From the NCBI GenBank assembly GCA_041651395.1, contig JBAZJI010000001.1, positions 251,920 through 315,919 on the forward strand: a stretch of 64,000 nucleotides of DNA, in the 5' to 3' direction. This DNA comes from Minisyncoccota bacterium (GTDB lineage: Bacteria > Patescibacteriota > Minisyncoccia > Minisyncoccales > JAGOPM01). The position numbers were made by a program, and so were the translations under genes. Below are positions 19,788-50,617 of the stretch, piece after piece (position 1 is the stretch's first letter; every line of letters starts with the position of its first letter). The notes under the pieces were generated by a model that saw only the letters and a list, made by a program, of their open reading frames with translations, did no database searches and was not told where the DNA came from.

Positions 19788-20861
19788 ATGAAAAATCCTT
19801 TGCACAAGCTATTCCCGAATTTTTCTAGAGATATGGCCATTGATTTAGGCACGGCCAACTCTTTGGTTTATTTGCGGGGCAAGGGGATTATAACTTCGGA
19901 ACCCTCAGTAGTGGCCATTAACCAGAAGACCGGCAAGATTTTAGCCGTGGGCTTTGAGGCTGAAAAAATGGTTGGCCGTACGCCCGGTTTTATTACGGCC
20001 ATTTATCCGTTGGTGGGCGGGGTAATTTCTGATTTTGAGGCTACCGAGCAAATGCTGCATTATTTTATCAGCAAAGTGCATAAAGGAAATTTTTTCTTAA
20101 GCCCCAGGATCAGGGTGGTGGTGGGTGTGCCTTGCGGCGTGACCGAGGTGGAGAAAAAAGCCGTTATTGATGCGGCTAAAAATGCCGGGGCTTCGGAGGT
20201 TTATTTAATTGAAGAGCCTATGGCCTCGGCCATTGGGGCTAAATTGCCGGTTAACGATGCGGGAGGCAATATGGTGGTGGATATCGGCGGGGGAACTTGC
20301 GAAATTGTAGCCATTTCTTTGGGCGGCATTGTTCATGCCCGCTCACTGAAGACTGCCGGCAATAAATTTGATTACGATATTGTCAATTACTGCCAAAATG
20401 AATTCAAATTATTAATCGGGAAGCGCACAGCCGAAAGGGTAAAAATCGGCATTGGAACGGTTTTGCCTTCCAATGGGCAAGGCAAAGAGCGGCGGGAAAT
20501 GCCCGTGCGCGGCCGCAATTTGGTCACGGGTTTGCCTGAACAAATAATTTTATCAGAAGAGGATGTGCGCCGGGCTATGGAGCGCTCGGTCCGTGAAATA
20601 ATTGATGCAATAAAACTTTCCATTGAGCAGACACCGCCCGAACTTTTAGCTGATATTATGAATAGAGGGATACATCTTTCCGGCGGCGGCGCGCTTTTAC
20701 GCGGTTTAGATACCCTGATTCAGAAAGAAACCAAAATCCCAACAAAAGTTATTGATGATCCTTTGACTGCCGTAGTCAGGGGGGCAGGTTCGGTCGTGGA
20801 GAATATCGATCGTTGGGTGGAAGTTTTGCTCGATACTGATGAGTTAGCACCGCTCAGATAA
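19788..20861 (+). CDS. mreB: MreB (copy 2)
   Basis: It contains MAIDLGTANSLVY, DIGGGTCEIVAISLGG and SGGGALLRGL motifs and is collinear with copy 1. Confidence 0.9.
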   Translation: MKNPLHKLFPNFSRDMAIDLGTANSLVYLRGKGIITSEPSVVAINQKTGKILAVGFEAEKMVGRTPGFITAIYPLVGGVISDFEATEQMLHYFISKVHKGNFFLSPRIRVVVGVPCGVTEVEKKAVIDAAKNAGASEVYLIEEPMASAIGAKLPVNDAGGNMVVDIGGGTCEIVAISLGGIVHARSLKTAGNKFDYDIVNYCQNEFKLLIGKRTAERVKIGIGTVLPSNGQGKERREMPVRGRNLVTGLPEQIILSEEDVRRAMERSVREIIDAIKLSIEQTPPELLADIMNRGIHLSGGGALLRGLDTLIQKETKIPTKVIDDPLTAVVRGAGSVVENIDRWVEVLLDTDELAPLR

Positions 20862-23563: not shown

Positions 23564-23641
23564 TGGCGCGGCGAATGGGATTCGAACCCACGATCTCCTC
23601 CGTGACAGGGAGGCGCATTAAACCAACTATGCTACCGCCGC
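23564..23641 (-). tRNA. tRNA-Asp (GTC), CCA encoded
   Basis: I folded the cloverleaf by hand: acceptor GCGGCGG/TCGCCGC, D arm GCAT/ATGC with a GG loop, anticodon stem CCTCC/GGAGG with loop CTGTCAC, T arm GTGGG-TTCGAAT-CCCAT, and a 3' GCCA. Confidence 0.85.
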
Positions 23642-23642
23642 A

Positions 23643-23719
23643 TGGTGCCTGGGGGCGGGATTGAACCGCCGACCTTGGGCTTATGAGTCCCACGCTCTGG
23701 CCAACTGAGCTACCCAGGC
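23643..23719 (-). tRNA. tRNA with CAT anticodon (elongator Met or Ile2/lysidine type), CCA encoded
   Basis: The cloverleaf has acceptor GCCTGGG/CCCAGGC, D arm GCTC/GAGC with a GG loop, anticodon loop CTCATAA, and T arm GGCGG-TTCAATC-CCGCC. The G1-C72 pair argues against an initiator. It starts 1 nt after tRNA-Asp. Confidence 0.8.
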
Positions 23720-23795
23720 AGCTGGCCCGGGCCCCGCCCGCTCGACTTGCAAACTCGCCTGTCGGGCATGGCCTGGCAGGCCAATATCTTTCTAG

Positions 23796-23866
23796 TCGGG
23801 GGACCAGGAATTGCACCTGGACCTCGGGCTTATGGGACCCGCAACCTACTATTGGTCCATCCCCCA
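23796..23866 (-). tRNA. non-canonical tRNA-like gene, CAT anticodon, no encoded CCA
   Basis: The 71-nt cloverleaf is TGGGGGA TG GACC AATAGTA GGTT G CGGGT CCCATAA GCCCG AGGT CCAGG TGCAATT CCTGG TCCCCCG A. All four stems form. However, position 33 is C, the D loop lacks GG, the T loop is TGCAATT rather than TTCRANY, and there is a U1-G72 pair. Confidence 0.4.
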
Positions 23867-28980: not shown

Positions 28981-29038
28981 ATAGATATCGCAAAAGGTGC
29001 ATTTTTGCCTTTTGCAACCAATAAAAAAATATAAAAAT

Positions 29039-32000
29039 ATGAACAAAAATATCAAAAATATTTTGTTTGCAGTCGGTGCCATCTTGGTGCTTGCTTTGGG
29101 CTATATGGCCTTTGGCGGCAAATTGGCTGGTGCCGAATCTTTAATCCAGCCCGTCCCGATGCTCGACGGTTCTGCGCAGGTTGGCGCTACCACTGCCATG
29201 GTTAAAGGCAATGTTATCGTCAATGCCAGCACCGACTCGGCTGAGGTGTATTTTGTGGCCCAGCCTAATAGCGGCGGCTCCACCATCATCTCTAACAAGA
29301 CGATTGTGGCCAGCTCTCAAGGCGCAACTTTGGGTGTGACTGGTATTTTAACCGGGCTCAATCCGGCAACAGCCTACACTTATTATTTGCAGGCTGATTT
29401 CCGCGGCCAGAATGTGAAAAGCCCCGTGGCATCTTTTACCACTTTGGAGGCTCAGGCCGGTAAAAGCGATTATTATGCTTGTATCGGTAATTCTTGCCAA
29501 TGGGTTGGCTTGACCACTCAAGCTGAATGTAACGCTAGTTACTCCGCTTGCAGCACTGTCCCCGGATGCAATAGCTCCTGTGCCAGCACTGACGGCGGCA
29601 GCGGTACTAATACCAGCGCCGGAGATGAGCGGACCGATTATTACACTTGCCAAGGCAATACCTGCCAATGGGTTGGTATTATGACTAAGGCTCAGTGTGA
29701 TAAATTATATTCCATTTGCAGCGCCAGTCGCGATTGCGGTGGAGTTTGTAATTCCAATACTACCGGCTCAGGCACGGAAAGCTCCCAAAAGAGGGATTTC
29801 TATTCCTGCGAAAATAATGCTTGCACTTGGAAAGGTTTTATGACCCCGGCGGCCTGCGCCCAGCTTTATGGTGCGGCCAACTGCCATATTACCCCGAACT
29901 GTGATGGAACTTGTTCAAATAGTTCAACCAGCTCTGAGCAGAGCACTGCCAAATACGATTTCTACGGTTGTGTCAGCAATACCTGCCAATGGTTGGGTTT
30001 AATGAGCGAGGCTAATTGCCACGCTACCAACGGTTCTAATTGTTACAGAAATATTAATTGTGATAATGTTTGCTCGACCTCTAATGGCGGCTCCAATAAT
30101 GATTCTGCCGCTAAATACGATTTCTATGGTTGCGTCAGCAACACCTGCCAATGGTTGGGCAATATGACCCAAGCCAGATGCAATGAGCTTAATGGTTCTA
30201 ATTGTTATAGGAGTAATGTCTGTGACAACGTTTGTTCTGGTACTAGCGGCGGCTCCAATAATGATTCTGCCGCTAAATACGATTTCTATGGTTGCGTCAG
30301 CAACACCTGCCAATGGTTGGGCAACATGACTTTGGCCAACTGCCAATCAGTCTATGGTTCTAACTGTTCTCACAACAATTATTGCGACAATCGCTGCACC
30401 CAGACCTCTAATGGCGGGGGCACCGATATTTATACTAAATACGATTTCTACGGCTGTGTTGGTAATGCCTGCCAATGGTTGGGCAACATGACTTTCCCGC
30501 AATGCCAATCAGTCTACGGTTATAATTGTTCTCGCAATAACTATTGCGACAATCGCTGCACTTCTGGTTCAAACGGCGGCAGCACTGAGACTAATACTAA
30601 ATACGATTTCTATGGTTGTGTCAGCAATACTTGCCAATGGTTGGGCAACATGACTTTGGCCAACTGCCAATCAGTTTATGGCTCTAACTGTTCTCGCAAT
30701 AACTATTGCGACAATCGCTGCACCTCGAACTCCAATGGCGGCGGCACAACTGATACCCAAAATAAATATGATTTTTATTCTTGCCAAGGAAACACTTGCC
30801 AGTGGTCTGGTTACATGACTTTGGCCAACTGCCAAGCGCTTTATGGCTCTAACTGTTCTCGTAACACCAGCTGTGATAATCGCTGCGTTTCCACCCCCAG
30901 TAATGGTGGCGGTTCAAACGATACTGCTACGAAGCAGAATTTCTACGGCTGCCAAGGCGATACTTGCCAATGGTTAGGTTACATGACTTTAGCCAAATGC
31001 AATGAGCTTTACGGTGGAAATTGTTACGCTTCACAAACCTGCAATTTGCAGTGTGCCGCTGACCAAAAGTTTAATTTGTATGCTTGCAAGGATAATTCTT
31101 GCGGTTCAGCCGGTTACATGAGTATGGCCGAATGTAAGGCCAAATATGGTGATTGTTACAAGACTTCTAATTGCGATAACAAATGCACTATTGAACAAAC
31201 CAAACGGGATTTCTATGGTTGTATCGGCAACACCTGCCAATGGTTGGGCTACATGACTTTGACTAACTGCCAAAATCTTTATGGCAGCGCCAACTGCAGC
31301 CTCACCAACAACTGTGATAATCGCTGTAGCGGTTCGACCACTGATAAATATGATTTCTATGGTTGTTCCAACAACACTTGTGTCTGGTGGGGCAATCTGA
31401 CCCAAGAGCAGTGCAACTCTGCCCATGGTTCAAGCAACTGTTACAAGGTTTCTAATTGCAATAGCCAGTGTTCCAATTCCGGAATCTATAATCCTTCTAT
31501 TATCACGAGGAGCGCTAGCAATATTAACTATCACAACGCCACTCTTAATGCTGATTTGACCAGTATGGGCAACAGCGATTACGTTGTGGTCTGGTTCGAA
31601 TATGGTAATTCTCAAAGCAATACGCGCCAGAGCATTCACCGCTCACGCTATGCCACCGGCTACTTTGGCATTGATGTCGATGACCTAAATGAGGGCTATA
31701 CCTATTGGTATCGCGCCGTGGCCAGAAACAACAATGGCACTTATGTCTATGGCGATTGGATGACTTTTGTCTCCAGCGGCACCGGATATAATTCTAATAG
31801 GCCTTATGTGAATACTTTAAGCGCTACGGATGTGGATTATAATTCAGCTACTTTGCGCGGAGACTTAATCAACCTTGGTGGTTCAACGGTGATGAATTTC
31901 ATCCAAACTGCCAATGCCGATGAAAATGCTTTAGTGTGGTTTGAGTGGGGCCGCGATACGGACTACGACTATACCACTACCAAACGCAGCCGCTCTTATA

Positions 32001-32776
32001 CCGGAACTTTCAGCCATGAGCTGACCGGCTTGGACGAAGGCGTCACTTATCACTATCGGGCTTGCGCTTCCAATAGCTACGGCACTTATTGTGATGATGA
32101 CATGACTTTCCGCACTGGCGGTTACAACGGCTACAATAGCACTTCTGAACAAGATTTCACCACTTGGATTTGGGCTCGCAATTTGAGCGAGAATCAAACC
32201 AAATGGCAAAAGGATTTGGTTTATGCCAAGCCCGGAGACCGGATCGCTTTCATTGTCCAAATTAAGAACAATACTGATTCGACCATTCGCAATATCATTG
32301 TCCGCAATTATTTGCCCAATGGTTTGACCTATAGCGGCATTACCAAGTTTGAAGACTTGCAACTTGACCGCAATATGGGACAAAACATCAATATCGGTAA
32401 TTTGTCTATTGATCAAACCCGCACCTTGATCTTTGAGGCCACAGTGACCGGAAATTTCAATTATGGCAATACCGAGTTGAAGGACATTGTCAGGTCTAGC
32501 AATAGCAATCTTGCTTCTTCCGATTCCATTATCATCAATGTGGCCAAAGCCCGGGTTTTGGGTACATATAACCAACCCAGCTCCATGAGCACCGGCTTGT
32601 CCTCTAATATCATTGATTTCGTTTTACTTCCGATTATTCTTGCCATCATCGTTTTGTTCGTTTTCCGTAACCAAATAATGGCCTTTGTCGCCACTTGGGA
32701 CAAAAGCGAATATTCTGCCCAAGCCAAGCTTGCTCAGAAAAAGCTGATGGAAAAGATTTCTATTTTAAGGAGATAA
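29039..32776 (+). CDS. large surface protein: FN3-like + 13 six-Cys modules + 2 FN3-like + DUF11-like + C-terminal TM anchor
   Basis: The ATG at 29039 (MNKNIKNILFAVGAILVLAL, signal/TM) is preferred because the track's GTG at 28997 lies inside the 5' UTR hairpin. The FN3-like LNPATAYTYYLQA precedes 13 tandem modules. These are followed by EGYTYWYRAVARNNNG and EGVTYHYRACASNSYG FN3-like domains, the DUF11-like AKPGDRIAFIVQIKNNTDSTIRNIIVRNYLPNGLTY, and the C-terminal TM IIDFVLLPIILAIIVLFVF. Confidence 0.8.
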   Translation: MNKNIKNILFAVGAILVLALGYMAFGGKLAGAESLIQPVPMLDGSAQVGATTAMVKGNVIVNASTDSAEVYFVAQPNSGGSTIISNKTIVASSQGATLGVTGILTGLNPATAYTYYLQADFRGQNVKSPVASFTTLEAQAGKSDYYACIGNSCQWVGLTTQAECNASYSACSTVPGCNSSCASTDGGSGTNTSAGDERTDYYTCQGNTCQWVGIMTKAQCDKLYSICSASRDCGGVCNSNTTGSGTESSQKRDFYSCENNACTWKGFMTPAACAQLYGAANCHITPNCDGTCSNSSTSSEQSTAKYDFYGCVSNTCQWLGLMSEANCHATNGSNCYRNINCDNVCSTSNGGSNNDSAAKYDFYGCVSNTCQWLGNMTQARCNELNGSNCYRSNVCDNVCSGTSGGSNNDSAAKYDFYGCVSNTCQWLGNMTLANCQSVYGSNCSHNNYCDNRCTQTSNGGGTDIYTKYDFYGCVGNACQWLGNMTFPQCQSVYGYNCSRNNYCDNRCTSGSNGGSTETNTKYDFYGCVSNTCQWLGNMTLANCQSVYGSNCSRNNYCDNRCTSNSNGGGTTDTQNKYDFYSCQGNTCQWSGYMTLANCQALYGSNCSRNTSCDNRCVSTPSNGGGSNDTATKQNFYGCQGDTCQWLGYMTLAKCNELYGGNCYASQTCNLQCAADQKFNLYACKDNSCGSAGYMSMAECKAKYGDCYKTSNCDNKCTIEQTKRDFYGCIGNTCQWLGYMTLTNCQNLYGSANCSLTNNCDNRCSGSTTDKYDFYGCSNNTCVWWGNLTQEQCNSAHGSSNCYKVSNCNSQCSNSGIYNPSIITRSASNINYHNATLNADLTSMGNSDYVVVWFEYGNSQSNTRQSIHRSRYATGYFGIDVDDLNEGYTYWYRAVARNNNGTYVYGDWMTFVSSGTGYNSNRPYVNTLSATDVDYNSATLRGDLINLGGSTVMNFIQTANADENALVWFEWGRDTDYDYTTTKRSRSYTGTFSHELTGLDEGVTYHYRACASNSYGTYCDDDMTFRTGGYNGYNSTSEQDFTTWIWARNLSENQTKWQKDLVYAKPGDRIAFIVQIKNNTDSTIRNIIVRNYLPNGLTYSGITKFEDLQLDRNMGQNINIGNLSIDQTRTLIFEATVTGNFNYGNTELKDIVRSSNSNLASSDSIIINVAKARVLGTYNQPSSMSTGLSSNIIDFVLLPIILAIIVLFVFRNQIMAFVATWDKSEYSAQAKLAQKKLMEKISILRR
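29462..31485 (+). repeat. coding tandem array of 13 six-cysteine modules (module A, about 45-56 aa each)
   Basis: The unit consensus is KYDFYGC-x4-C-QWLGNMT-x3-C-x7-C-x5-C-DNRC followed by a G/S/N/T linker. A 77-bp exact DNA repeat lies at 30086-30162 and 30248-30324 (offset 162 bp). Confidence 0.85.
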
Positions 32777-41871: not shown

Positions 41872-41900
41872 TTGAGAAAATAAATATATAGCTTTATAAT
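41872..41900 (+). promoter_or_regulatory. promoter candidate, TTGAGA-17 nt-TATAAT
   Basis: The hexamers and spacing were read directly from the sequence. It lies 26 nt upstream of the giant gene's ATG, and no SD is visible. Confidence 0.6.
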
Positions 41901-41925: not shown

Positions 41926-44900
41926 ATGCAAAATATTTTTAAGCAAATAGCAAAGATAACTTTGCTGATTGTTGCGTTGTGGATTTTGCCACAAACCGCT
42001 TTAGGTTTCGGGGGAGTCGACTCAACCCTGAAATCCGGATTCAAGGGATTTAATATCGGGCAATCCAATATGGTTGACTCGGCTATTAATACGGCCAGCA
42101 CCAATAAGGGCTTAATGAGTTCTGGCTGCGTACCCATTCCTAGCTCTGGCGGAAGAGGTGTGGCAATCAGTTTTGCTAATCCCCTTAAAGATTCGGCAGG
42201 CTATACGCTTAAAGCAGCCAATGTTTGGTATACTTGCGTGCCCGGCTCCTCTTTTTGGGACGCGACCGAAAGCTATTTGACTTATTATGGCGATGGGTCT
42301 TATTCCGGGCAAATAGGCAGCTGTCAAAAATTGGGGACGGCCACCAGTTTGTCTTATAATTGGAGCATAAACAATTATGCCGGCTATGTGTGCAAGATTT
42401 GGGTGGCTTTTTCTAGGACTGAAACTTGCGCCGCCCAGCCTTCCGATGTGGCCAACATCTACTCCAGGCCTTTTCGTATCTGTGGCGCTCCGCTTGTCAA
42501 AAATAAGTCCTACTCCAATGCGCTTGGCACGTGCAATACCCAGACCGGCAAGGTGGATAGCGTAGAGGTTTGCGGCTATATCACCGATACGGGTAATGGC
42601 GGATCTATAAGTTCCTGTAAGATTGTTTTTGGCGGTGTATCTTATACTGGCACTTATGACAGTGTGGCCAAGGATTGCTGCGCGGCCATTAAGGGGCTGC
42701 AAAAAGGCTCCACTTATAAGTTTAGAGCCTATGCTACTAATAATTCCGGAACAGAAGGCAATGCGGGAACTGATACGATCATTACGACTATCTCTACTTG
42801 CTCAATCGCGAGTAAGTCGGTCAAAGTTACAACGCCTTTAATTTCCAATGTTACCAAAACATCCGCTCATTTTGAGGCTGATGCTTGGCTGGAAGATAGC
42901 ACTGGCGCCAAGAGCGCCCTGACCAGTGATTATAGTGGATTATTTAGGGTTATTGGCGGCGGAAAAACTCTTGATTTTGACTCAACGAAGAAATCCGGAA
43001 CTTCTTACACCTATCAAAGTGACGGTAGTAACCTTGCGGCCGGCACTTCTTATGAAGTTTATTTTGTAGTTAAGGAGATTAGTACGGGCAAGGTCACACT
43101 ATCTTCAGCTGGGAAATTTAATACTCCGCAAGCGGCTGGCCCGAGCCTTTCCATTGCTGCTGTTGGCACACCTACCTGCGGAACTTATCCGAACTGCAAT
43201 TATTCCGGCCAATTCAAAATCACCTTGAAGGACGGCAGCGGTAATCCGCTGAGCGGTTATGTGACCGTGACAACACCTAGAGGTTCTTCTTATGAAGTAA
43301 AAACCGCCTCTGATGGCACTTATACCATTACAATTACCAATTTGGCGAGCTTAACAACTACTTATACGGTTAAGGTGGATTACGGCACAGCTACAGCTCA
43401 GGCCACCATTGACCCGAGAACGGTTTGCGCTAATTGCAAAGAGGCCCCGCCCACAGACACTTATTATTCTTGCTATAATTATGCCGATGGTAATGGCCAG
43501 TATTGCGACAAGATTGCTTTAGCTTCTTGCACTGGTCGCACTTGTTATAAAAACGATTCTACTTGCGCTAATACCTGCAAAAAGCCAACAACTTGCGACA
43601 AGAATGGCATTTGTGATGCCGGAGAGACCCAAACTAACTGCCCGTCGGATTGCAATAAGTATTACGGGTGCTCCAATACAAACGGTTGCCAGCTGATTAC
43701 GAGCCTAAACGACAAGTTATTGTGCGCGAGCAATGGCCTTTCAAGCACGAATCAGATTTGTTACGCAAACGATTCTACTTGCCAGAATGCCTGCGCAAAA
43801 GATATGTCTTGGTGTGATGTTTCGGGGGTTTGTAAAACTTCTTTTATTAGTGAACAGGCTTGCCGCAACGAATATGGCACATGCTATGCCGGAAAATATT
43901 GCGGTGGCACCTCTTACTACGACAAGGATTCTAGGTGTGTTATCAAAAAGGATCTTTCTTGGTGCGATACCAATGGTATTTGCCAAACCGCCTATCTGGC
44001 CGAGGGCACTTGCCGGGACGAACATGGTTCCTGCATCTTAGGCAAATATTGCGGCGGCACTTCCTACTACGATAAAAATTCCAAGTGTGTCCAGAAAGGA
44101 AACTATTCATATTGTAGTGCCAGTGGAGCTTGTATTCCGATGCAAAATGTTGCCAAGGCCGCTTGCGAAGACGAAGCCGGCGCTGGCAACTGCAAGGATG
44201 GTTTATACTGTGGCGGCACTTCTTACACCGCCAATTCAATGTGTGTTCAGAAAGCCAATTACTCCTATTGCAGTTCTTTGGGCACTTGTGTGCAAATGCC
44301 CAATGTCTTGAAAGCCGCCTGCGAAGATGAGGCGGGTGTTGGTAATTGCAAAACAGGCTTATATTGCGGCGGCACTTCCAACTATGATAAGGATTCCAAG
44401 TGTGTTGTTAAAAAGGATATGTCTTGGTGCGCTAGCGGTATTTGTCAAACTGCCTATATAGCTGAGGGCACTTGCCGGGACGAACATGGTTCCTGCATCT
44501 TAGGCAAATATTGCGGCGGCACTTCCTACTATGACAAGGACTCTAAATGCGTCCAAAAAGGAAATTATTCCTATTGCAATACTGCTGGCGGCTGTGTCCC
44601 CATGGCTAATGTCATAAAGAAGGCTTGCGAAGACGAAGCCGGCGCTGGCAACTGCAAGGATGGTTTATACTGCGGCGGAACATTATATACAGCTAGTTCA
44701 ATGTGTGTTCAGAAAGCCAATTATTCTTATTGCAACATTAGTGGCGTTTGCGTACAGATGCCCAATGTCATAAAGAAGGCTTGCGAAGACGAAGCCGGCG
44801 TGGGTAACTGCAAAGACGGTTTATATTGCGGTGGCACCTCTTACACTGCCAATTCAATGTGCGCCCAGAAAGCCAATTATTCTTATTGCAGCGTTAACGG

Positions 44901-47900
44901 TACCTGTGTCCCCATGTCTAATGTTTTGAAAAAGGCCTGTGAAGACGAGGCAGGTGTGGGTAATTGCAAAACAGGCTTATATTGCGGCGGCACGAGCCAG
45001 TATGATATGAATGCGGCTTGTGAGTCTCCTAAATTATTATCTTGGTGCCAATACGATGCATCTTTGGGGAAAACCCAATGCAAGAGCGCAACCATCCGCG
45101 AGAGCCTTTGCAGAAACGAGCATGGCACTTGTTGGCCGGGACAATATTGCTCCAAAATAAGTGCGGTTGACCCTAATGCGCAATGCTCTGGCGAGCAAAA
45201 AGGCGATTATTCATATTGCGCTTCGACTGGGAAATGTATTTCCATGCCCGGGGTTTATAAGATTGCCTGCGAAGACGAGGCGGGCAAGGGAAATTGCATC
45301 AATGGTTTGTACTGCGGTGGAAGCTCTTCCGATAAGGATTTAAGATGCGGCGGAGGATATTCCATAAAGATTACGCGCGATCCGGCTTTTGCCGAAAAGT
45401 GTACGCGGTGCAAATTTGAGGGCTGGTATGTCATTACCTTAACCAAAGGAACTCAGCCGGTTGGCGGCGGTTACGTGAAGATTTCCATGCCAGATAATCC
45501 TTCGTATTATCCGACAAACATTCCGACCGATTACCAAGGCCAAGCCAAAGTTTATATTACCGATATAAAAGATTTTACTCGGACTTATACATTTAAGGCC
45601 GAATATGGGCCAGACAATGCCACGATTACCATTGACCCACGCAATCTTTGTGGAGGGTGTGCTTCGTTAGGAAATTATTCCTATTGCGATGCTTACGGCA
45701 AATGCCTTGTCATGAATAATGTCTACAAGAAGGCCTGCGAAGACGAAGCCGGGGCGGGCAACTGTAAAGACGGTTCTTATTGTGGCGGCACAAGTTTTGC
45801 TGATGCCAATAGCAAATGCACGGGATATTTTGCTTGCGGCCCGAAGTGTATGCAGGTTTATGATTTGAGCGCAATTAATTCGTGTAAGGCAACCGGCAAG
45901 CTTCCTGATGGCAATAAATGTTACACTAACGGTTCCTGCAATAAGGAATGCCGCGTCCCCGGAGGAGTAGTGGTTAATGTTGATGCCACGAAAACCGGCG
46001 ATTGTACGGCTGATGTTAAATTATCATTTGCTTGCGAGGGCGAGGATTCCATTTGCCAAGGGCAAACCAAGGGCACCGGATTAATTTCTAATTTTGTCCT
46101 TTATGGCGGGCGCAGCATCGCTTATGATGGCGCCGCGCCAAGTGGAGCCACTTTGATTCCCAGCGGCCAAGATACAATTATTGCGCAAAATATCGGAATA
46201 TTGACTAGCGATAGCGCGGCAAAGACCGTTATTTATAAGGTAAAATGTACCAGTGATTTTTGTCGGTTCCCCGGTCAAATATTTTATGAGCCGGGCAGCT
46301 CGGTCTTGGGCAATGTGCTTGGGCGAAGATATATTTCTTCCCCGGTGGAATTTGAAAATTGCGCCCAAAGGGGAAACTATTCTTATTGCAATGCCCAAGG
46401 CAGTTGCATCAATATGCCCAATGTCTATAAGAAGGCCTGTGAAGATGAGGCAGGTGTGGGTAATTGTATGCCCGTGGCTTATTGCGGCGGATCAGTCGCT
46501 TCTCCGAATGGAATTTGCAGACAGGAGCAAAAGGGAAATTACTCATATTGCAATTCTTTAGGCAGCTGCATACAGATGTCTAATGTTTACAAAAAAGCCT
46601 GCGAAGACGAAGCGGGTGTGGGCAACTGCAAAGACGGCCTCTACTGCGGTGGTAATTCTATAACAGCCAATCAGCAGTGCGGGAACAAGGGTCCCATGGC
46701 ATTTTCCAAGTGCATCGTGCAGAACCACTGCATTGATATAACCGAAAAGCCCGGGGTGGACATTTATTGCGATGTTTTAACCATGGGTAAGTATACTCTT
46801 GATAATGCAGTCGTTAATATTACGCTTTTTGATGCGCAGGGCCGGAAAATCGCTACAAAGCGAGCTGGCGAAACGATTGGTAATCCGACCCAATACACGG
46901 CCAGATTCAGCGATTTGGCTCTCAATACTAAATATTTATACGAGCTCGATGCTAATAATGAAGGAGGTTTGAGCTCTAATTTCACTACACCGGCTGATTG
47001 CAAAACTACTGGCGAATGCCAAGTGGCCTCAGGTATGAATCTTTCAACTAATTGCAAGGTTCCGCTAGGCAGTGAAGCGACCGGTAGATGCGTCAAAGTT
47101 TTGATGAAGTTTGTCCCATTCAATGGCAAGCCAATTTTTGGCCAGAATGTTTCAATGGATGTGCTTTATATGCAAAACGGCAGAATCGTTAGGACTACGG
47201 CGCCGGCATTCTGGAATATTAATACCCAGACCCCGGGATATTCCATTACAATTTCCGGTATTAGTGTTGCTTCGGGCGAAACCATCAATGTCAGGCTGCC
47301 CAATTACACCATTGGGACAACGCCAAACATTTTGACTTCCAACCCATTCACTTTCAGCTTTGGTAAATATACAGTGCAAACATTTACTTCTGACACCGGT
47401 AGAACCGTGGTTAGCGGTACGGCTTTCTTGCCTCTAAGCATGAGGATTAAGCATTGCTGCGGTAACGGTATTTGCGATGCGGCCAAAGGCGAAACTGCGG
47501 CTAATTGCAGTAAGGATTGTGCGAATCAACCTAACCTACATATGACGGCCAGCTTTAGTGATATTCGCTGCGCCGACGGAAAGAATTTCAGTGCTAAAGT
47601 TAATGTCAATTTGAAGGAGGCGGCAATTGCCGAGAAATTTATTTCCGGAGCCAAGATTTCCTATGCAATTCCTGGGACAATATTTTCTAATTTCGTCGAG
47701 ATCAGCTCTCCGACCGATTCGTTGGGCAATACTTGGATATCCATGAGCGCTCCTATTACCACTTATACCGGTAAAGAAATCCAATTCAAATATAATGATG
47801 CTCAGACCAATCTTTCCTTTGCGGCTATTGAGGAAGCTTGTAAGAATTGGCAGGGTAATTATACAATCAAGGCTTGGATGACGGATGTGAAGTGCTTGGA

Positions 47901-50547
47901 CACTCAAACGGGGAAATACCAAGCCAATATTAAGGCGCAGGTGTTCGATGCCAATGGGAAGCTGGTGCAAGACGCTTGGCCGGAGTTCAACCTTGGACCT
48001 TCAAGATTCCAAGGCATTGAACATCCAACCGTTTCTAATGGATATACTTCAACTCTGCTTGGATTAGTCAATGATGATGCGTCCATATCAGTTGATGTTT
48101 CGTATAAGAATGCCAAAGTTTCTGTTAATCCGTCCCTTGAGGCAAAGAATTGTTTAAGCGCTTGTGTAGGGGATTTTGATAATGAAGCTTTGCAGATCAA
48201 AGCCATTGCCCCGGCTACTTGCATTAATGGCAAGCTTACCCTTACTGGTGAAGTGATTTCTGCTACTGGCAAAATCAAAGATGCCTGGTTTAATGTTTCT
48301 GGTTTTACGGGCCGGGCCATGGAGCCACTGCATGTAAGCCAAATGCCCACCAAGGCCAACCCCGTTTTCACTTATACCGGTGATTGCTCTAATTTGAAGG
48401 AAGGCCAATTATACTTCGTGGAAGCGGCAGCCCAAGATTGCAAGACAGCGGTCGCAAAGGGCGGCATCCAGTTTATCCCCAAAAAAGAAGGAGCGTCTGT
48501 CTTGTTGAAATTTGTTGGCTCAAAGATTGATAAAGTCAGCGCAGCAGGTATTAAGCCAGAAAGCGCCGAAGGAAGTATTACATTCTCTATTACTGCTATC
48601 GGCGGGGATGCTTATCTCCCAATAAGGGCATCGGTGGCGCCTAGCGCCTATTCATTTTCAGTTAAAACGTCAAGTGGCGAGAATCATCCGAAGTTCGATT
48701 CGACTATTGGTTGTGATGCTGAAATCAAAGGAGATTATTATTTAGTCCGCGAGGGTACAACTAAGAAATGTGCGGTCGCATTTGCCTTTACGGCTTTCAA
48801 GAATGCATTTTATCAAGCTACCATTGATCATATTTCTTGGAATACTGGTGCAACTGATTTGTTCTATCAAGAGTCAACCCTTAAGGACTCCCTTGGAACC
48901 TTCCCGCTTAATTCCCAATTCAAGACGCAGATGATTTACTTAGTTTCCGGAGCGGCCGAGGCTAGCGGCAAAATTGTTCGTGCCGATGTAGTAACTTTTG
49001 GCAAGGACGATTGCACCCAAGAACTGAATATCAGCTTGACCTGTTCACTCAAAGCCGATACATGCCGCAATACGAGCATAAAACTTTTCCTTAATCCTGA
49101 TGTCGTAGACACAAGCGCCAGTGGAAATATTGTGGAAGTGCCGGTTAATGATTTTCAAGATCAAACGATTGTTAAATATCAGGTAAAGGTGAAGAAAAAT
49201 AGTGGAGCGATACTTTTAGCTGGCAAATCATCGGCGGCGGCCAGTGGCCAAACGGTTGTCCAATTAGTCAACGGTGCCACTAATTTTAATGCGCAGGGCT
49301 GTGAGATCATAAGGCAATGCATTAAAGAAGGCGAGGCCAAGGTGGTGGGCGCGGGTGATGATTTACCATGCTGCACAGGATTGGTGGAGTTTTACAACGA
49401 TAGTGATGTTGTTTGCGAAAAATGCGGTAAAGATGGCCAATCTCCTTTGACTGGTGCTGGAAAGTGTTGCGAAGGGTTTGAATTAAAGAATGATGTTTGT
49501 GTTAAGAAGGTTGATATTTCCGCTTGCATCAAGGAGGGAGAAGTGGTGAAAGCCAATCAAACTTGCTGTGAAAAATTAGCTCCCATTGCGCAGGGATTAA
49601 CCGGTATCAAGAAATGCACCAACACTTGCGGTCATGGCGACCGGGATAATGTTTGGCAGCAGATTGACGGATTCAAAGCTTCGCAGCGTTGCCACAATAA
49701 GACATCGTATTTTTTGGAATATAATCCCGTGTGCAATGAATATGCGGTGTCGATATCCGGTCCCAATCTTGACCAAATGAAAACGGCCCAAACAAGCTTT
49801 AGGAGCGAAGAAGAGGCGGATAAAAAAGCTAGGGAAGTCGTGAGCGCATGGTCAAACAATCCTAATTACAATACTATTCCTAGTTGTGAATGTTATAATG
49901 GAGTCGGTATTTTTTACGGATACCAACCGGTCAATTTTGGTGCGAATTATTCCTTGAAATTCAAAGGGGGCAACGACCGGTTCGGTTTTGATCGCGAGCA
50001 TTCTCAGTTAAATTATTTGAAGAAGAACATAATCGACGCCTTGCCCGATGAATTTGAGCACAATCAATGCGGTGCGGGCGTGGAAACTAAACCGGATTGT
50101 GGTTGCAGTAAGGGTTGCAGCCAGGTTTGTGGCAAGGTGCTTAGCAGCGCAGGCTCCTATGATTACCAAACCTTTGATGACAAATGCCAGATGGAAACGG
50201 CCAAATACATTCTTTCCAATGAGGGGCCATGCCTTGAGGCCGGTGGTTTAAGAGTTGTAATTAAGAGTGCTATCTCCGGGGATAGCGGTTCCAAGATGCA
50301 AGCCCAAATCATTGGGGCCAAAGCCGGAACAGCGGCAAGCTATAAGCCACAATTCATCTTGTATCCTTGTGACAATAAAGCCATTGCCATTGAAATGGGC
50401 CGCGCCGGGACCAAAGTTGACTCTAAGGGAATTTATAGCTTTAATCCTGACTATTTATTCCTAAAGAACAGCGGATTTTGTGTCGGAGCGCGTATCTATA
50501 TTAACGGCAAGCCAGTTGATTCAGCTAATCCGATACCTTTCAAATAA
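41926..50547 (+). CDS. giant secreted mosaic protein (2873 aa) with 13 six-Cys modules (module B) plus 2 module-A copies
   Basis: This is a single uninterrupted ORF with the signal peptide MQNIFKQIAKITLLIVALWILPQTALGFGG. Its N-terminal domain is paralogous to that of the 39691 gene. It has FN3-like segments (GSTYKFRAYATNNSG), two prealbumin/CarboxypepD_reg-like segments (ITLKDGSGNPLSGYVTVTT...DGTYTITI), and two CxxGICDAxxGETxxNCxxDC motifs. Its Cys-rich C-terminal third is unrecognised. Confidence 0.85.
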   Translation: MQNIFKQIAKITLLIVALWILPQTALGFGGVDSTLKSGFKGFNIGQSNMVDSAINTASTNKGLMSSGCVPIPSSGGRGVAISFANPLKDSAGYTLKAANVWYTCVPGSSFWDATESYLTYYGDGSYSGQIGSCQKLGTATSLSYNWSINNYAGYVCKIWVAFSRTETCAAQPSDVANIYSRPFRICGAPLVKNKSYSNALGTCNTQTGKVDSVEVCGYITDTGNGGSISSCKIVFGGVSYTGTYDSVAKDCCAAIKGLQKGSTYKFRAYATNNSGTEGNAGTDTIITTISTCSIASKSVKVTTPLISNVTKTSAHFEADAWLEDSTGAKSALTSDYSGLFRVIGGGKTLDFDSTKKSGTSYTYQSDGSNLAAGTSYEVYFVVKEISTGKVTLSSAGKFNTPQAAGPSLSIAAVGTPTCGTYPNCNYSGQFKITLKDGSGNPLSGYVTVTTPRGSSYEVKTASDGTYTITITNLASLTTTYTVKVDYGTATAQATIDPRTVCANCKEAPPTDTYYSCYNYADGNGQYCDKIALASCTGRTCYKNDSTCANTCKKPTTCDKNGICDAGETQTNCPSDCNKYYGCSNTNGCQLITSLNDKLLCASNGLSSTNQICYANDSTCQNACAKDMSWCDVSGVCKTSFISEQACRNEYGTCYAGKYCGGTSYYDKDSRCVIKKDLSWCDTNGICQTAYLAEGTCRDEHGSCILGKYCGGTSYYDKNSKCVQKGNYSYCSASGACIPMQNVAKAACEDEAGAGNCKDGLYCGGTSYTANSMCVQKANYSYCSSLGTCVQMPNVLKAACEDEAGVGNCKTGLYCGGTSNYDKDSKCVVKKDMSWCASGICQTAYIAEGTCRDEHGSCILGKYCGGTSYYDKDSKCVQKGNYSYCNTAGGCVPMANVIKKACEDEAGAGNCKDGLYCGGTLYTASSMCVQKANYSYCNISGVCVQMPNVIKKACEDEAGVGNCKDGLYCGGTSYTANSMCAQKANYSYCSVNGTCVPMSNVLKKACEDEAGVGNCKTGLYCGGTSQYDMNAACESPKLLSWCQYDASLGKTQCKSATIRESLCRNEHGTCWPGQYCSKISAVDPNAQCSGEQKGDYSYCASTGKCISMPGVYKIACEDEAGKGNCINGLYCGGSSSDKDLRCGGGYSIKITRDPAFAEKCTRCKFEGWYVITLTKGTQPVGGGYVKISMPDNPSYYPTNIPTDYQGQAKVYITDIKDFTRTYTFKAEYGPDNATITIDPRNLCGGCASLGNYSYCDAYGKCLVMNNVYKKACEDEAGAGNCKDGSYCGGTSFADANSKCTGYFACGPKCMQVYDLSAINSCKATGKLPDGNKCYTNGSCNKECRVPGGVVVNVDATKTGDCTADVKLSFACEGEDSICQGQTKGTGLISNFVLYGGRSIAYDGAAPSGATLIPSGQDTIIAQNIGILTSDSAAKTVIYKVKCTSDFCRFPGQIFYEPGSSVLGNVLGRRYISSPVEFENCAQRGNYSYCNAQGSCINMPNVYKKACEDEAGVGNCMPVAYCGGSVASPNGICRQEQKGNYSYCNSLGSCIQMSNVYKKACEDEAGVGNCKDGLYCGGNSITANQQCGNKGPMAFSKCIVQNHCIDITEKPGVDIYCDVLTMGKYTLDNAVVNITLFDAQGRKIATKRAGETIGNPTQYTARFSDLALNTKYLYELDANNEGGLSSNFTTPADCKTTGECQVASGMNLSTNCKVPLGSEATGRCVKVLMKFVPFNGKPIFGQNVSMDVLYMQNGRIVRTTAPAFWNINTQTPGYSITISGISVASGETINVRLPNYTIGTTPNILTSNPFTFSFGKYTVQTFTSDTGRTVVSGTAFLPLSMRIKHCCGNGICDAAKGETAANCSKDCANQPNLHMTASFSDIRCADGKNFSAKVNVNLKEAAIAEKFISGAKISYAIPGTIFSNFVEISSPTDSLGNTWISMSAPITTYTGKEIQFKYNDAQTNLSFAAIEEACKNWQGNYTIKAWMTDVKCLDTQTGKYQANIKAQVFDANGKLVQDAWPEFNLGPSRFQGIEHPTVSNGYTSTLLGLVNDDASISVDVSYKNAKVSVNPSLEAKNCLSACVGDFDNEALQIKAIAPATCINGKLTLTGEVISATGKIKDAWFNVSGFTGRAMEPLHVSQMPTKANPVFTYTGDCSNLKEGQLYFVEAAAQDCKTAVAKGGIQFIPKKEGASVLLKFVGSKIDKVSAAGIKPESAEGSITFSITAIGGDAYLPIRASVAPSAYSFSVKTSSGENHPKFDSTIGCDAEIKGDYYLVREGTTKKCAVAFAFTAFKNAFYQATIDHISWNTGATDLFYQESTLKDSLGTFPLNSQFKTQMIYLVSGAAEASGKIVRADVVTFGKDDCTQELNISLTCSLKADTCRNTSIKLFLNPDVVDTSASGNIVEVPVNDFQDQTIVKYQVKVKKNSGAILLAGKSSAAASGQTVVQLVNGATNFNAQGCEIIRQCIKEGEAKVVGAGDDLPCCTGLVEFYNDSDVVCEKCGKDGQSPLTGAGKCCEGFELKNDVCVKKVDISACIKEGEVVKANQTCCEKLAPIAQGLTGIKKCTNTCGHGDRDNVWQQIDGFKASQRCHNKTSYFLEYNPVCNEYAVSISGPNLDQMKTAQTSFRSEEEADKKAREVVSAWSNNPNYNTIPSCECYNGVGIFYGYQPVNFGANYSLKFKGGNDRFGFDREHSQLNYLKKNIIDALPDEFEHNQCGAGVETKPDCGCSKGCSQVCGKVLSSAGSYDYQTFDDKCQMETAKYILSNEGPCLEAGGLRVVIKSAISGDSGSKMQAQIIGAKAGTAASYKPQFILYPCDNKAIAIEMGRAGTKVDSKGIYSFNPDYLFLKNSGFCVGARIYINGKPVDSANPIPFK
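43798..46680 (+). repeat. coding array of six-cysteine module B (10 tandem copies at 43798-45347, plus copies at 45670-45819 and 46372-46680)
   Basis: The unit is (K/G)(G/A)NYSYC-x5-C-x10-ACEDEAGxGNC-x4-YCGG-x9-C. There are 9 copies of this type and 4 of a SWC...CR(D/N)EHG(S/T)C variant. Exact DNA repeats of 68 bp (44002-44069 and 44464-44531) and 50 bp (44161-44210 and 44623-44672) are each offset by 462 bp. This points to a 3-module higher-order duplication. Confidence 0.85.
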
Positions 50548-50550
50548 GTA

Positions 50551-50580
50551 AAAACCGCCCTGTGGAGGGGCGGTTTTTTT
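50551..50580 (+). terminator. rho-independent terminator
   Basis: CCGCCC-TGTGGAG-GGGCGG is flanked by AAAA and TTTTTTT. Confidence 0.85.
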
Positions 50581-50617
50581 CTTGGAAAAACTAATGCTAA
50601 AATAGGGATAAGTGAAT

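What the first reader, a model, noticed from the sequence alone, without database searches (positions are those of the whole stretch)
43798..46680. The giant 2873-aa protein has a higher-order (3-module, 462-bp) duplication inside its module-B array and a mosaic architecture
Modules 2-3-4 (subtypes W, Y, Y) are repeated as modules 5-6-7. Exact DNA matches of 68 bp (44002-44069 and 44464-44531) and 50 bp (44161-44210 and 44623-44672) both show a 462-bp offset. Three further module-B copies are dispersed between unrelated domains downstream (45670-45819, 46372-46680). This indicates module shuffling within the gene. An uninterrupted 8.6-kb ORF in a presumably very small genome is a major investment. 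The two module subtypes alternate in a regular way (SWC...CRDEHGSC versus YSYC...ACEDEAGxGNC), which could reflect a two-module structural repeat.
Basis: seen in the sequence. Interest (0 to 1): 0.72.

Follow-up and report, generated by a model that had tools for sequence, protein, structure and literature searches.

The report
Repeat array in giant CPR surface protein
The repeat pattern is real: it is the central array of an undescribed six-cysteine module in a giant secreted protein of an ultra-small (CPR) bacterium, reshaped by ordinary recombination between repeats, so it is a well-documented example of a known kind, not a new mechanism.

Summary
ORF 41926-50547 (2873 aa) is intact, and the 68-bp and 50-bp exact matches at a 462-bp offset exist. 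The gene carries 13 copies of a ~50-aa six-Cys module. A ~463-bp, three-module block is repeated 2.1 times (43880-44852).

A 91%-identical ortholog from an independent assembly (L002, 2926 aa) keeps the order of modules 1-12 and has 14 modules. Whole-gene dN/dS is 0.069, so this is a real gene under purifying selection, not a mis-assembly.

The block duplication predates the split of the two strains (dS 0.81 against 0.40). The exact matches are later gene-conversion tracts. In the ortholog the 68-bp tract has 16 differences, and 10 of the 11 'concerted' sites lie inside the two tracts. Window module 13 is a chimera of ortholog modules 13 and 14, so one module was lost by in-register recombination.

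The claimed regular W/Y alternation is wrong. The order is W W Y Y W Y Y Y W Y | Y | Y Y.

The module has no match in Pfam, NCBIfam or PDB, and none among 1.84 billion representative proteins. Structure prediction failed. Function is inferred only from context: a stalk or adhesin in a 30-kb surface-protein island. Known kind, new member, modest interest.

The parts
41872..41900 (+). Promoter-like site TTGAGA-17-TATAAT, 26 bp upstream of the ATG
   Evidence: (11 of 12 matches, the best in the 15.5 kb scanned). This is a consensus match only.
41926..50547 (+). Giant gene, 2873 aa, 178 Cys (6.2%)
   Evidence: The protein is identical to P0001 / MFA5165940.1. Against the ortholog, dN/dS is 0.069.
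41926..42006 (+). Signal-peptide-like N-terminus (MQNIFKQIAKITLLIVALWILPQTALG)
   Evidence: Read from the translation. No signal-peptide predictor was run.
43195..43437 (+). Big_1/Invasin_D3-like Ig domain, copy 1 (aa 424-504)
   Evidence: E 6e-6, 26.7 bits, below the curated cut-off of 34.9; 37% identical to copy 2, E 6e-14.
43438..43803 (+). Cys-rich 'module A' region (aa 505-626) with an internal repeat (aa 534-563 ~ 606-636)
   Evidence: (family D4).
43804..45363 (+). Tandem array of module B, M1-M10. Order W W Y Y W Y Y Y W Y. Each module has six Cys and is 49-55 aa.
   Evidence: each copy scores 57-88 bits against the module HMM.
43880..44344 (+). Higher-order repeat, copy 1: M1 core and tail, M2, M3, M4 head
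   Evidence: (D2, D3).
44345..44806 (+). Higher-order repeat, copy 2: M4 core and tail, M5, M6, M7 head. It is 3 bp shorter than copy 1 because of a one-codon indel at the start of M5.
44807..44852 (+). Partial third copy of the higher-order repeat (M7 core)
   Evidence: identity at offset 462 persists up to 44390 paired with 44852.
44002..44069 (+). Gene-conversion tract 1, donor side (M2). It is identical to 44464-44531 (M5).
   Evidence: In the ortholog the two copies differ at 16 of 68 sites. Within the tract, window M5 differs from ortholog M5 at 18 sites, while M2 differs from ortholog M2 at 5.
44464..44531 (+). Gene-conversion tract 1, recipient side (M5)
44161..44210 (+). Gene-conversion tract 2 (M3), identical to 44623-44672 (M6). 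Seven 'concerted' sites lie inside it and an eighth, 44214, lies 4 bp beyond its end.
44623..44672 (+). Gene-conversion tract 2, partner copy (M6)
45409..45660 (+). Big_1-like Ig domain, copy 2 (aa 1162-1245)
45676..45834 (+). Dispersed module M11 (Y type)
46378..46695 (+). Dispersed pair M12-M13 (Y type). The ortholog has three modules here.
46626..46655 (+). Recombination breakpoint inside chimeric M13. The 5' part matches ortholog M13 and the 3' part matches ortholog M14. The switch lies in the conserved GNCKDGLYCGG core.
49486..50205 (+). C-terminal segment (aa ~2521-2760) with synonymous divergence 2-3 times the gene's baseline between the two strains
   Evidence: pS 0.58-0.79 against about 0.25.
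50551..50582 (+). Hairpin plus T-run (AAAAACCGCCC..GGGCGGTTTTTTT) 4 bp after the stop codon; terminator-like in both directions

Best explanation
The flagged region is the central repeat array of a genuine 8.6-kb gene. The gene encodes a secreted, disulfide-rich giant protein of a CPR (Patescibacteria/Minisyncoccota) bacterium.

The array is built from an undescribed ~50-aa module with six invariant cysteines. The module comes in two subtypes: W (SWC...CRDEHGSC) and Y (YSYC...ACEDEAGxGNC).

Its history is ordinary repeat dynamics in three steps.
(1) Before the two known strains diverged, an unequal crossover duplicated a three-module block of about 463 bp in tandem. The breakpoints lay in the conserved G-x-Y-C-G-G core.
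(2) Since then, short gene-conversion tracts have re-homogenised parts of the two blocks. The 68-bp and 50-bp exact matches are these tracts. In the first tract M2 overwrote M5 in this lineage.
(3) In-register recombination between two neighbouring modules fused ancestral M13 and M14 in this lineage, giving 13 modules against 14 in the ortholog.

Function is inferred, not shown. The protein is most likely exported by its N-terminal signal sequence. It would then form a disulfide-stiffened stalk or multivalent binding array on the cell surface, used by this presumably episymbiotic cell to contact a host. It acts within a 30-kb island of other secreted proteins: CAP, sortase, a second Cys-rich repeat protein, VWA, NAGPA and two lytic-transglycosylase-like proteins.
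For: Gene is real:
- The ORF is intact.
- The same protein occurs on two long contigs.
- A syntenic ortholog from a different MAG is 94% aa and 91% nt identical with a single 53-aa indel.
- dN/dS is 0.069 over the whole gene and 0.039 in the array.

Modules:
- There are 13 copies with six invariant Cys.

Higher-order repeat:
- Identity profiles at offsets 465 and 462.
- DNA identity is 85% for M2/M5 and 79% for M3/M6.
- The repeat is present in the ortholog too (O1/O2 71%).
- Paralog dS is 0.81, greater than ortholog dS of 0.40.

Gene conversion:
- The longest exact run is improbable, P about 1e-5.
- Of the 11 sites where both window copies agree against both ortholog copies, 10 lie inside the two exact tracts (P 1.3e-4).
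- Within the 68-bp tract, window M5 differs from ortholog M5 at 18 sites while M2 differs from ortholog M2 at 5.
- The ortholog has its own 41-bp exact run elsewhere.

Module loss:
- Window M13 is the 5' part of O13 joined to the 3' part of O14.
- O13 and O14 are only 61% identical, so this is not a recent duplication in the ortholog.

Surface role:
- The N-terminus looks like a signal peptide and the protein is 6.2% Cys.
- There are sub-threshold Ig-like Big_1/Invasin hits and weak matches to S-layer Ig domains.
- The neighbours are all secreted or surface types.
- Literature precedent exists for large Cys-rich extracellular CPR proteins with strain variation (PMC4736985) and for adhesins being required for epibiotic growth of Patescibacteria (PMC10633639).
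Against: - No experimental or structural evidence for function. AlphaFold2 gave pLDDT 42 for the triplet and 61 for one module, and the fold search found nothing.
- No known adhesive domain or cell-wall anchor was found. There is no LPxTG motif or C-terminal TM segment.
- The polarity of the 13-versus-14 difference rests on parsimony without an outgroup.
- Only two full-length sequences exist, so the conversion inference rests on a four-sequence comparison.
- The two long contigs that carry the identical window protein may derive from the same sample.
- No read-level validation was possible.
Confidence: 0.72

Rival explanations
1. Assembly artefact. The higher-order repeat or the module count results from collapse or mis-joining of repeats in a short-read metagenome assembly.
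For: The source is a metagenome assembly with k141 contig names. Repeats are a classic source of assembly error, and no reads were available to check.
Against: The longest exact repeats (68 and 50 bp) are shorter than the final k-mer and typical reads. A different population assembled independently (SPAdes-style NODE contig, 91% nt identity) has the same order for M1-M12 and the same block duplication. The frame is intact with dN/dS 0.069. At the M13 junction the parental modules are only 61% identical, so a collapse there is implausible.
Confidence: 0.03
2. The exact matches simply mark a very recent three-module duplication with no gene conversion. The rest of the divergence reflects relaxed or positive selection.
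For: Tandem duplication does produce identical stretches.
Against: The duplication is shared with the ortholog. Overall paralog dS is 0.81, twice the strain divergence. Mismatches are far from uniformly spread, P about 1e-5. In the ortholog the 68-bp tract has 16 differences, and the concerted sites cluster in the tracts.
Confidence: 0.07
3. The modules are ligand-binding units rather than passive stalk spacers. One possibility is small disulfide-rich lectins for host cell-wall glycans, so that the array is a multivalent binder. This overlaps with the best explanation and is not exclusive of it.
For: Purifying selection on the modules is very strong (omega 0.039). Aromatic and Gly/Ser positions are invariant (YSYC/SWC, Y-C-G-G-T-S), which from memory recalls small carbohydrate-binding Cys-rich domains. 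Neighbouring genes act on cell-wall glycans (NAGPA, SLT-like).
Against: No module matches any Pfam carbohydrate-binding family, even at E up to 10. There are no PDB hits. The resemblance to hevein-type motifs is from memory only and was not confirmed by any tool.
Confidence: 0.3
4. The protein is a structural envelope or S-layer-like component rather than a host adhesin.
For: There are weak matches of aa 355-488 to S-layer protein Ig-like domains (4uid, E 0.016). The gene has its own strong promoter-like site and terminator. CPR cells are reported to have S-layers (PMC4736985).
Against: The matches are not significant and cover one Ig-like domain only. S-layer proteins are usually abundant, smaller and poor in Cys. 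The family is restricted to two strains in a collection of about 15 billion proteins.
Confidence: 0.12
5. The protein is a polymorphic toxin or effector with a variable C-terminal domain delivered to the host.
For: The C-terminal segment aa ~2521-2760 is the most divergent part between strains (73% aa identity in bin 2601-2700; pS up to 0.79).
Against: No toxin domain was found in Pfam or NCBIfam. No small immunity-like gene follows; the next genes are 654-aa and 525-aa secreted SLT-like proteins. dN/dS stays at or below 0.2 in that segment.
Confidence: 0.04

Closest known systems
Large cysteine-rich extracellular proteins of CPR bacteria (Peribacteria genomes; Anantharaman et al. 2016, PMC4736985)
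   Same: CPR genome. Very large protein with a signal peptide. Very high Cys content. No functional annotation. Proposed attachment role. Strain-to-strain variation.
   Different: This is a descriptive category, not a homologous family. No sequence relationship was shown here. The six-Cys module found here has no detectable relatives.
Periscope Proteins (SasG, Rib, Sgo_0707; Whelan et al. 2021, PMC8201768)
   Same: Tandem array of similar folded modules in a surface protein. Module number changes between close strains by intragenic recombination. SasG also uses two alternating module types.
   Different: DNA identity between modules is 40-85%, not near-identical. Number variation is small (13 against 14). 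The two subtypes do not alternate regularly. No wall anchor or distal ligand-binding domain was identified. The modules are small disulfide-rich units rather than Ig-like or Rib folds.
Fibrillar adhesins (Monzon et al. 2021, PMC8286594)
   Same: Long single-chain protein with tandem repeated small domains and Ig-like (Big_1-like) domains, probably exported.
   Different: No recognised adhesive domain and no recognised anchor. The stalk module is not among the known stalk families.
Super-repeats (higher-order repeats) in modular proteins such as titin and nebulin, and concerted evolution of repeat arrays (from general knowledge)
   Same: A block of several modules is itself duplicated. Paralogous modules are homogenised by gene conversion or unequal crossover.
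   Different: Only 2.1 copies of the block exist here, with no evidence that the block is a structural unit.
Neighbouring gene 28997-32776 (DUF11-repeat protein with 13 'FYGC' six-Cys modules)
   Same: Same island. 6.4% Cys. Array of ~42-aa six-Cys modules. Similar C1-C5 spacing. hhalign aligns C2-C5 in register (P 0.009).
   Different: Similarity is not significant as a database-type hit (probability 4.5%). The last loop differs (x3 against x10-11). It has a C-terminal TM anchor that the giant lacks.

Membership tests
Fibrillar adhesin (sensu Monzon et al. 2021) | Long single-chain exported surface protein | tested here: met
   2873 aa with a signal-peptide-like N-terminus, judged by inspection. 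No predictor was run.
Fibrillar adhesin (sensu Monzon et al. 2021) | Multiple stalk domains, commonly in tandem | tested here: met
   Ten tandem and three dispersed copies of one module, plus two Big_1-like domains. The module is not a listed stalk family.
Fibrillar adhesin (sensu Monzon et al. 2021) | At least one recognised adhesive domain | tested here: not met
   Pfam and NCBIfam scans give no adhesive domain. The only hits are sub-threshold Big_1, Invasin_D3 and Filamin.
Fibrillar adhesin (sensu Monzon et al. 2021) | Cell-surface anchor (LPxTG, TM segment and so on) | tested here: not met
   No LPxTG-like motif or hydrophobic C-terminus. A sortase gene lies 16 kb upstream, but no sorting signal is seen in this protein.
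Periscope Proteins (Whelan et al. 2021) | Tandem array of highly identical repeats at the DNA level | tested here: not met
   Module DNA identity is 37-85%. The best adjacent pair, M6/M7, is 80%.
Periscope Proteins (Whelan et al. 2021) | Repeat-number variation between related strains | tested here: met
   13 against 14 modules in two populations that are 91% nt identical.
Periscope Proteins (Whelan et al. 2021) | The array forms a rod projecting a distal ligand-binding domain from an anchored end | not testable with these tools
   Structure predictions were of low confidence.
Large Cys-rich extracellular CPR proteins (descriptive class, PMC4736985) | CPR genome; more than 1000 aa; signal peptide; unusually high Cys; strain variation | tested here: met
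   The source label is Candidatus Paceibacterota, now Minisyncoccota. The protein is 2873 aa with 6.2% Cys, against 0.4-1.9% in the five housekeeping proteins tallied (pheS, pheT, gyrB, EPSP synthase, MreB, amidase). Strain variation is shown.
Pfam Big_1 / Invasin_D3 (basis of NCBI's name 'Ig-like domain-containing protein') | Score at or above the Pfam gathering threshold | tested here: not met
   Big_1 scores 26.7 bits against a cut-off of 34.9. Invasin_D3 scores 26.3 against 33. The E-values of 6e-6 and 1e-5 suggest a real but divergent Ig-like fold.
Any described Cys-rich domain family (EGF, disintegrin, hevein/CBM18, defensin and so on) | Profile match of the modules | tested here: not met
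   Each of the 13 modules was scanned against Pfam at E up to 10. Only scattered single hits appeared (Disintegrin in 2 of 13, best E 0.025). The PDB profile search found 0 hits at E up to 10. Foldseek found 0 hits.

The most novel reading that the evidence does not exclude
Module B, possibly together with the 'FYGC' module of the neighbouring gene and the giant's module A, defines an undescribed disulfide-rich domain superfamily restricted to this CPR lineage. It would form host-recognition arrays. Intragenic gene conversion and module gain or loss in these arrays would then be a functional diversification mechanism for host range, not neutral repeat turnover.
Probability: 0.15. Interest if true: 0.55.

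Novelty: new member of a known kind. Interest (0 to 1): 0.3.

Why it matters
CPR (Patescibacteria) bacteria make up a large share of bacterial diversity and appear to live attached to host cells, yet their attachment proteins are almost entirely uncharacterised. This gene takes up about 0.9% of a ~0.96-Mb contig and sits in a 30-kb island of secreted proteins, so it is a reasonable candidate host-contact protein. Its module is a domain type that no database describes. The two-strain comparison documents unequal crossover, gene conversion and module loss in a CPR surface gene. That is useful as an example, but it is expected behaviour for repeat-containing surface proteins and opens no new question on its own.

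Tried and rejected
- Whole-protein homology search of 5.8 billion clusters: only the protein's own cluster. Its members are the window protein, the 2926-aa ortholog and a 125-aa C-terminal fragment.
- Module-profile search by word index: nothing.
- Exhaustive hmmsearch of 1.84 billion representatives with the module profile: 0 hits at E up to 1e-3. The giant itself scores 904 bits with this profile, so it is evidently not in that library. Single divergent modules of about 25 bits would also be missed at this database size.
- C-terminal 503 aa alone: nothing.
- Two JGI metagenome scans, one with Y-module patterns and one with the whole protein: no relatives.
- Pfam on the whole protein and on every module separately, NCBIfam, PDB sequence search (profile and full length): nothing significant for the modules.
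- AlphaFold2 on the W-Y-Y triplet: pLDDT 42. On one Y module with 13 sequences: pLDDT 61. Only the N-terminal beta-hairpin plus helix reached about 70. Foldseek against PDB: no hits.
- BLASTP self-comparison returned only the trivial hit until the protein was cut into fragments.
- Homology between module B and the neighbour's FYGC module: alignment is in register but not significant (hhalign P 0.009, probability 4.5%; HMM scores around 0 bits). Kept as a lead only.
- A hevein-like reading of the 'YCGGTS' motif was considered from memory and not supported by any search. It is not claimed.

Full report
**1. The observation**

ORF 41926..50547 on the + strand is uninterrupted and encodes 2873 aa.

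Sliding identity at fixed offsets shows one continuous similarity. It runs at offset 465 from 43880 to about 43965, then at offset 462 from about 43970 to about 44390, at 70-100% identity. Outside that range identity is at background, 20-40%. The 3-bp change of offset is a one-codon indel at the start of module 5. The repeat is therefore a tandem higher-order unit of about 463 bp present about 2.1 times (43880-44852).

Given 89 mismatches in 421 aligned bases, random placement gives a longest exact run of 68 or more with P about 1e-5. The pattern is far beyond chance and is also non-uniform.

**2. Anatomy of the protein**

Anchoring on the Y-C-G-G core gives 13 modules of 49-55 aa, each with six cysteines at conserved spacing. 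A profile built from them finds exactly these 13 in the six-frame translation of the window and nothing else.

| Module | Coordinates | Type |
|---|---|---|
| M1 | 43804-43953 | W |
| M2 | 43954-44103 | W |
| M3 | 44104-44259 | Y |
| M4 | 44260-44418 | Y |
| M5 | 44419-44565 | W |
| M6 | 44566-44721 | Y |
| M7 | 44722-44877 | Y |
| M8 | 44878-45036 | Y |
| M9 | 45037-45201 | divergent W |
| M10 | 45208-45363 | Y |
| M11 | 45676-45834 | Y |
| M12 | 46378-46533 | Y |
| M13 | 46540-46695 | Y |

M4 and M8 are hybrids, with a Y-type head and a W-type tail (..YDKDSKC..). Each precedes a W module.

DNA identities:

| Pair | DNA identity |
|---|---|
| M2/M5 | 85% |
| M3/M6 | 79% |
| M6/M7 | 80% |
| M3/M7 | 77% |
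| M4/M8 | 71% |
| M4/M7 | 66% |

At offset 618 the 3' part of M4 matches M8 at 93-100%. So '2-3-4 repeated as 5-6-7' holds for modules 2 and 3 and for the head of module 4. The block boundaries lie inside modules, at the conserved core, not between them.

The rest of the protein is a mosaic:
- The N-terminus looks like a signal peptide.
- A Big_1/Invasin_D3-like Ig domain occurs twice, at aa 424-504 and 1162-1245. The two copies are 37% identical, E 6e-14. The Pfam hits are below the gathering score.
- A different Cys-rich 'module A' is repeated at aa 534-563 and 606-636.
- Beta-rich regions follow, then a Cys-rich C-terminus.
- The protein has 178 Cys in total, 6.2%.

**3. Is the gene real?**

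The exact protein is in public collections as MFA5165940.1, 'MAG: Ig-like domain-containing protein [Candidatus Paceibacterota bacterium]'. It lies on contigs of 957 kb and 952 kb. Candidatus Paceibacterota is now a synonym of Minisyncoccota, the CPR/Patescibacteria phylum.

Searching species-representative genomes with the upstream NAGPA-domain neighbour found one related genome, CAZQSQ010000001.1 (locus L002). Its neighbour protein is 96% identical. There the syntenic gene (L002 12236..21016) encodes 2926 aa. The two proteins are 94% identical in aligned columns and 91% at the nucleotide level. They differ by a single 53-aa indel, the size of one module.

Nei-Gojobori estimates are dS 0.40, dN 0.028 and omega 0.069 for the whole gene, and omega 0.039 for the array. 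No 120-codon window exceeds 0.20. The four upstream neighbours are syntenic and 94-97% identical.

An intact frame, strong purifying selection and independent recovery of the same module order from a distinct population argue strongly against mis-assembly. No reads could be examined.

**4. History of the array**

The ortholog has the same modules 1-12 in the same order, and it also carries the three-module block duplication. The duplication therefore predates the split of the two strains. Paralog dS (M2M3 against M5M6) is 0.81 with omega 0.12.

A four-way alignment compares window block 1, window block 2, ortholog block 1 and ortholog block 2:
- 73 sites separate the paralogs in both genomes.
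- 11 sites show the 'concerted' pattern, where both window copies agree with each other and differ from both ortholog copies.
- Ten of these 11 lie inside the two exact-match tracts, P 1.3e-4.

In the 68-bp tract the ortholog's two copies differ at 16 sites. Window M5 differs from ortholog M5 at 18 sites, whereas window M2 differs from ortholog M2 at only 5. The simplest reading is that M2 overwrote M5 in the window's lineage.

In the 50-bp tract both window copies differ from both ortholog copies at the same positions. The ortholog has its own 41-bp exact run a little further along. This points to independent homogenisation in each lineage.

The raised apparent synonymous divergence between orthologs in M5-M8 (pS 0.55-0.61 against about 0.25) fits this.

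**5. The 13-versus-14 difference**

The ortholog has three modules where the window has M12-M13. Window M13 follows ortholog M13 at informative sites up to about 46638. It follows ortholog M14 from about 46639 onward, with the switch in the GNCKDGLYCGG core.

Ortholog M13 and M14 are only 61% identical. A recent duplication in that lineage therefore cannot explain the difference. An in-register recombination that fused two neighbouring modules in the window's lineage is the parsimonious reading. An outgroup would be needed to be sure.

The breakpoints of the old block duplication (43880 and 44345) fall in the same conserved core. That core is probably the preferred site of recombination (inference).

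**6. What the module is**

Nothing known matches it:
- Pfam on the full protein and on each module at E up to 10.
- NCBIfam.
- PDB sequence profiles.
- Module-profile searches of the 5.8-billion-cluster collection and of 1.84 billion representatives.
- Two metagenome contig scans.

One caveat applies. A 53-position profile needs roughly 45 bits to be significant at that database size. Isolated divergent copies would be missed, and the giant itself is evidently absent from the representative library (compare).

AlphaFold2 gave unusable confidence for the W-Y-Y triplet (pLDDT 42). For a single Y module it gave 61, with only an N-terminal beta-hairpin plus helix near 70. Foldseek against the PDB returned nothing. 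The fold and the disulfide pattern remain unknown.

**7. Context and likely function**

From 24.4 to 54.2 kb the window encodes, all on the + strand:
- a CAP-domain protein;
- a sortase;
- a Cu_amine_oxidN1-domain protein;
- a 1259-aa Cys-rich DUF11-repeat protein with its own 13-module array and a C-terminal TM anchor;
- a 711-aa protein with no domain hit;
- a 1374-aa VWA protein;
- a 735-aa NAGPA (phosphodiester glycosidase) protein;
- the giant;
- two lytic-transglycosylase-like proteins.

Housekeeping genes (pheS, pheT, gyrB) follow. The giant has its own promoter-like site (11 of 12 matches) and a hairpin plus T-run immediately after the stop codon.

Large Cys-rich extracellular proteins with strain variation have been described in CPR genomes and proposed to mediate attachment (PMC4736985). 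Tn-seq in a cultivated Saccharibacterium showed that adhesins are required for epibiotic growth (PMC10633639).

On this basis I read the protein as an exported, disulfide-stiffened stalk or multivalent binding array used in host contact. This step is inference. No adhesive domain or anchor was found, so it does not meet the published definition of a fibrillar adhesin (PMC8286594). Its modules are also too divergent at the DNA level for the Periscope Protein class (PMC8201768). It nevertheless behaves like a slow version of one, with one module of difference between strains.

**8. Verdict**

The mosaic architecture, the recombination between modules and the large investment by a small genome all hold. 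The regular W/Y alternation and the implied two-module structural unit do not.

The phenomenon is tandem block duplication, concerted evolution and module loss in a repeat-rich surface protein, which is well known. What is new is the module family and the CPR setting. Interest is modest.

Noticed in passing
window 28997-32776 (+): A second Cys-rich giant in the same island: 1259 aa, 6.4% Cys, a DUF11 repeat near the C-terminus and a C-terminal TM anchor. It carries 13 copies of a different ~42-aa six-Cys module (DFYGC..NTCQWLG.MT.A.C..YGSNC.....CDNRC) at a 162-bp period, separated by G/S/T/N-rich linkers. Copies two units apart (30250-30423 and 30574-30747) are 86% identical, so this array also shows higher-order or mosaic similarity. 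Its C1-C5 spacing resembles module B of the giant, but profile comparison is not significant (hhalign P 0.009, probability 4.5%).
   Followed up: partly
window 49486-50205 (aa ~2521-2760 of the giant): Synonymous divergence from the ortholog is 2-3 times the gene's baseline (pS 0.58-0.79 against about 0.25), while dN/dS stays at or below 0.18. This looks like a segment imported by homologous recombination from a more distant strain. It is the Cys-rich C-terminal region, possibly the distal end.
   Followed up: partly
window 41872-41900 and 50551-50582: The giant gene appears to be its own transcription unit. The best promoter-like match in 15.5 kb lies 26 bp upstream of the ATG. A GC-rich hairpin flanked by an A-run and a T-run lies 4 bp after the stop codon, so it is terminator-like in both directions.
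   Followed up: partly
window 24461-54155: About 30 kb of consecutive + strand genes for secreted or surface proteins: CAP, sortase, Cu_amine_oxidN1, the DUF11 Cys-rich protein, a 711-aa unknown, VWA (1374 aa), NAGPA, the giant, and two SLT_2-like lytic transglycosylases. The five genes from the DUF11 protein to the giant (about 29.0-50.5 kb) are syntenic in the related genome L002, which does not extend to the rest of the island. It is a candidate host-interaction island.
   Followed up: partly
L002 (CAZQSQ010000001.1) versus the window: Source labels differ. The window protein is named Candidatus Paceibacterota bacterium, now Minisyncoccota. The contig holding the ortholog (the giant genes are 91% nt identical) is titled 'uncultured Candidatus Saccharibacteria bacterium'. 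At least one label is probably imprecise.
   Followed up: no
window 14812-15822 and 19788-20861 (+): Two full-length MreB/Mbl paralogs lie 4 kb apart in what is probably a ~1-Mb CPR genome.
   Followed up: no
window 43528-43593 (aa 535-556, KIALASCTGRTCYKNDSTCANT) and 47656-47721 (aa 1911-1932): The second stretch (aa 1911-1932, CCGNGICDAAKGETAANCSKDC) and a sibling at aa ~556-578 (TCDKNGICDAGETQTNCPSDC, about 43591-43659) are two copies of a short motif, C-x-x-N-G-I-C-D-A-x-x-G-E-T-x-x-N-C-x-x-D-C. From memory it resembles the 'Myxococcus cysteine-rich repeat' type mentioned for Peribacteria proteins in PMC4736985. Not tested.
   Followed up: no
P0002 (ENA, 602-bp contig): A 125-aa fragment about 93% identical to the giant's C-terminus (aa ~2735-2860). 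It indicates a third population carrying this gene. It does not cover the module array.
   Followed up: partly
window 23564-23866 (-): A tRNA cluster, Asp(GTC)-Met(CAT)-Met(CAT), lies immediately upstream of the surface-protein island.
   Followed up: no
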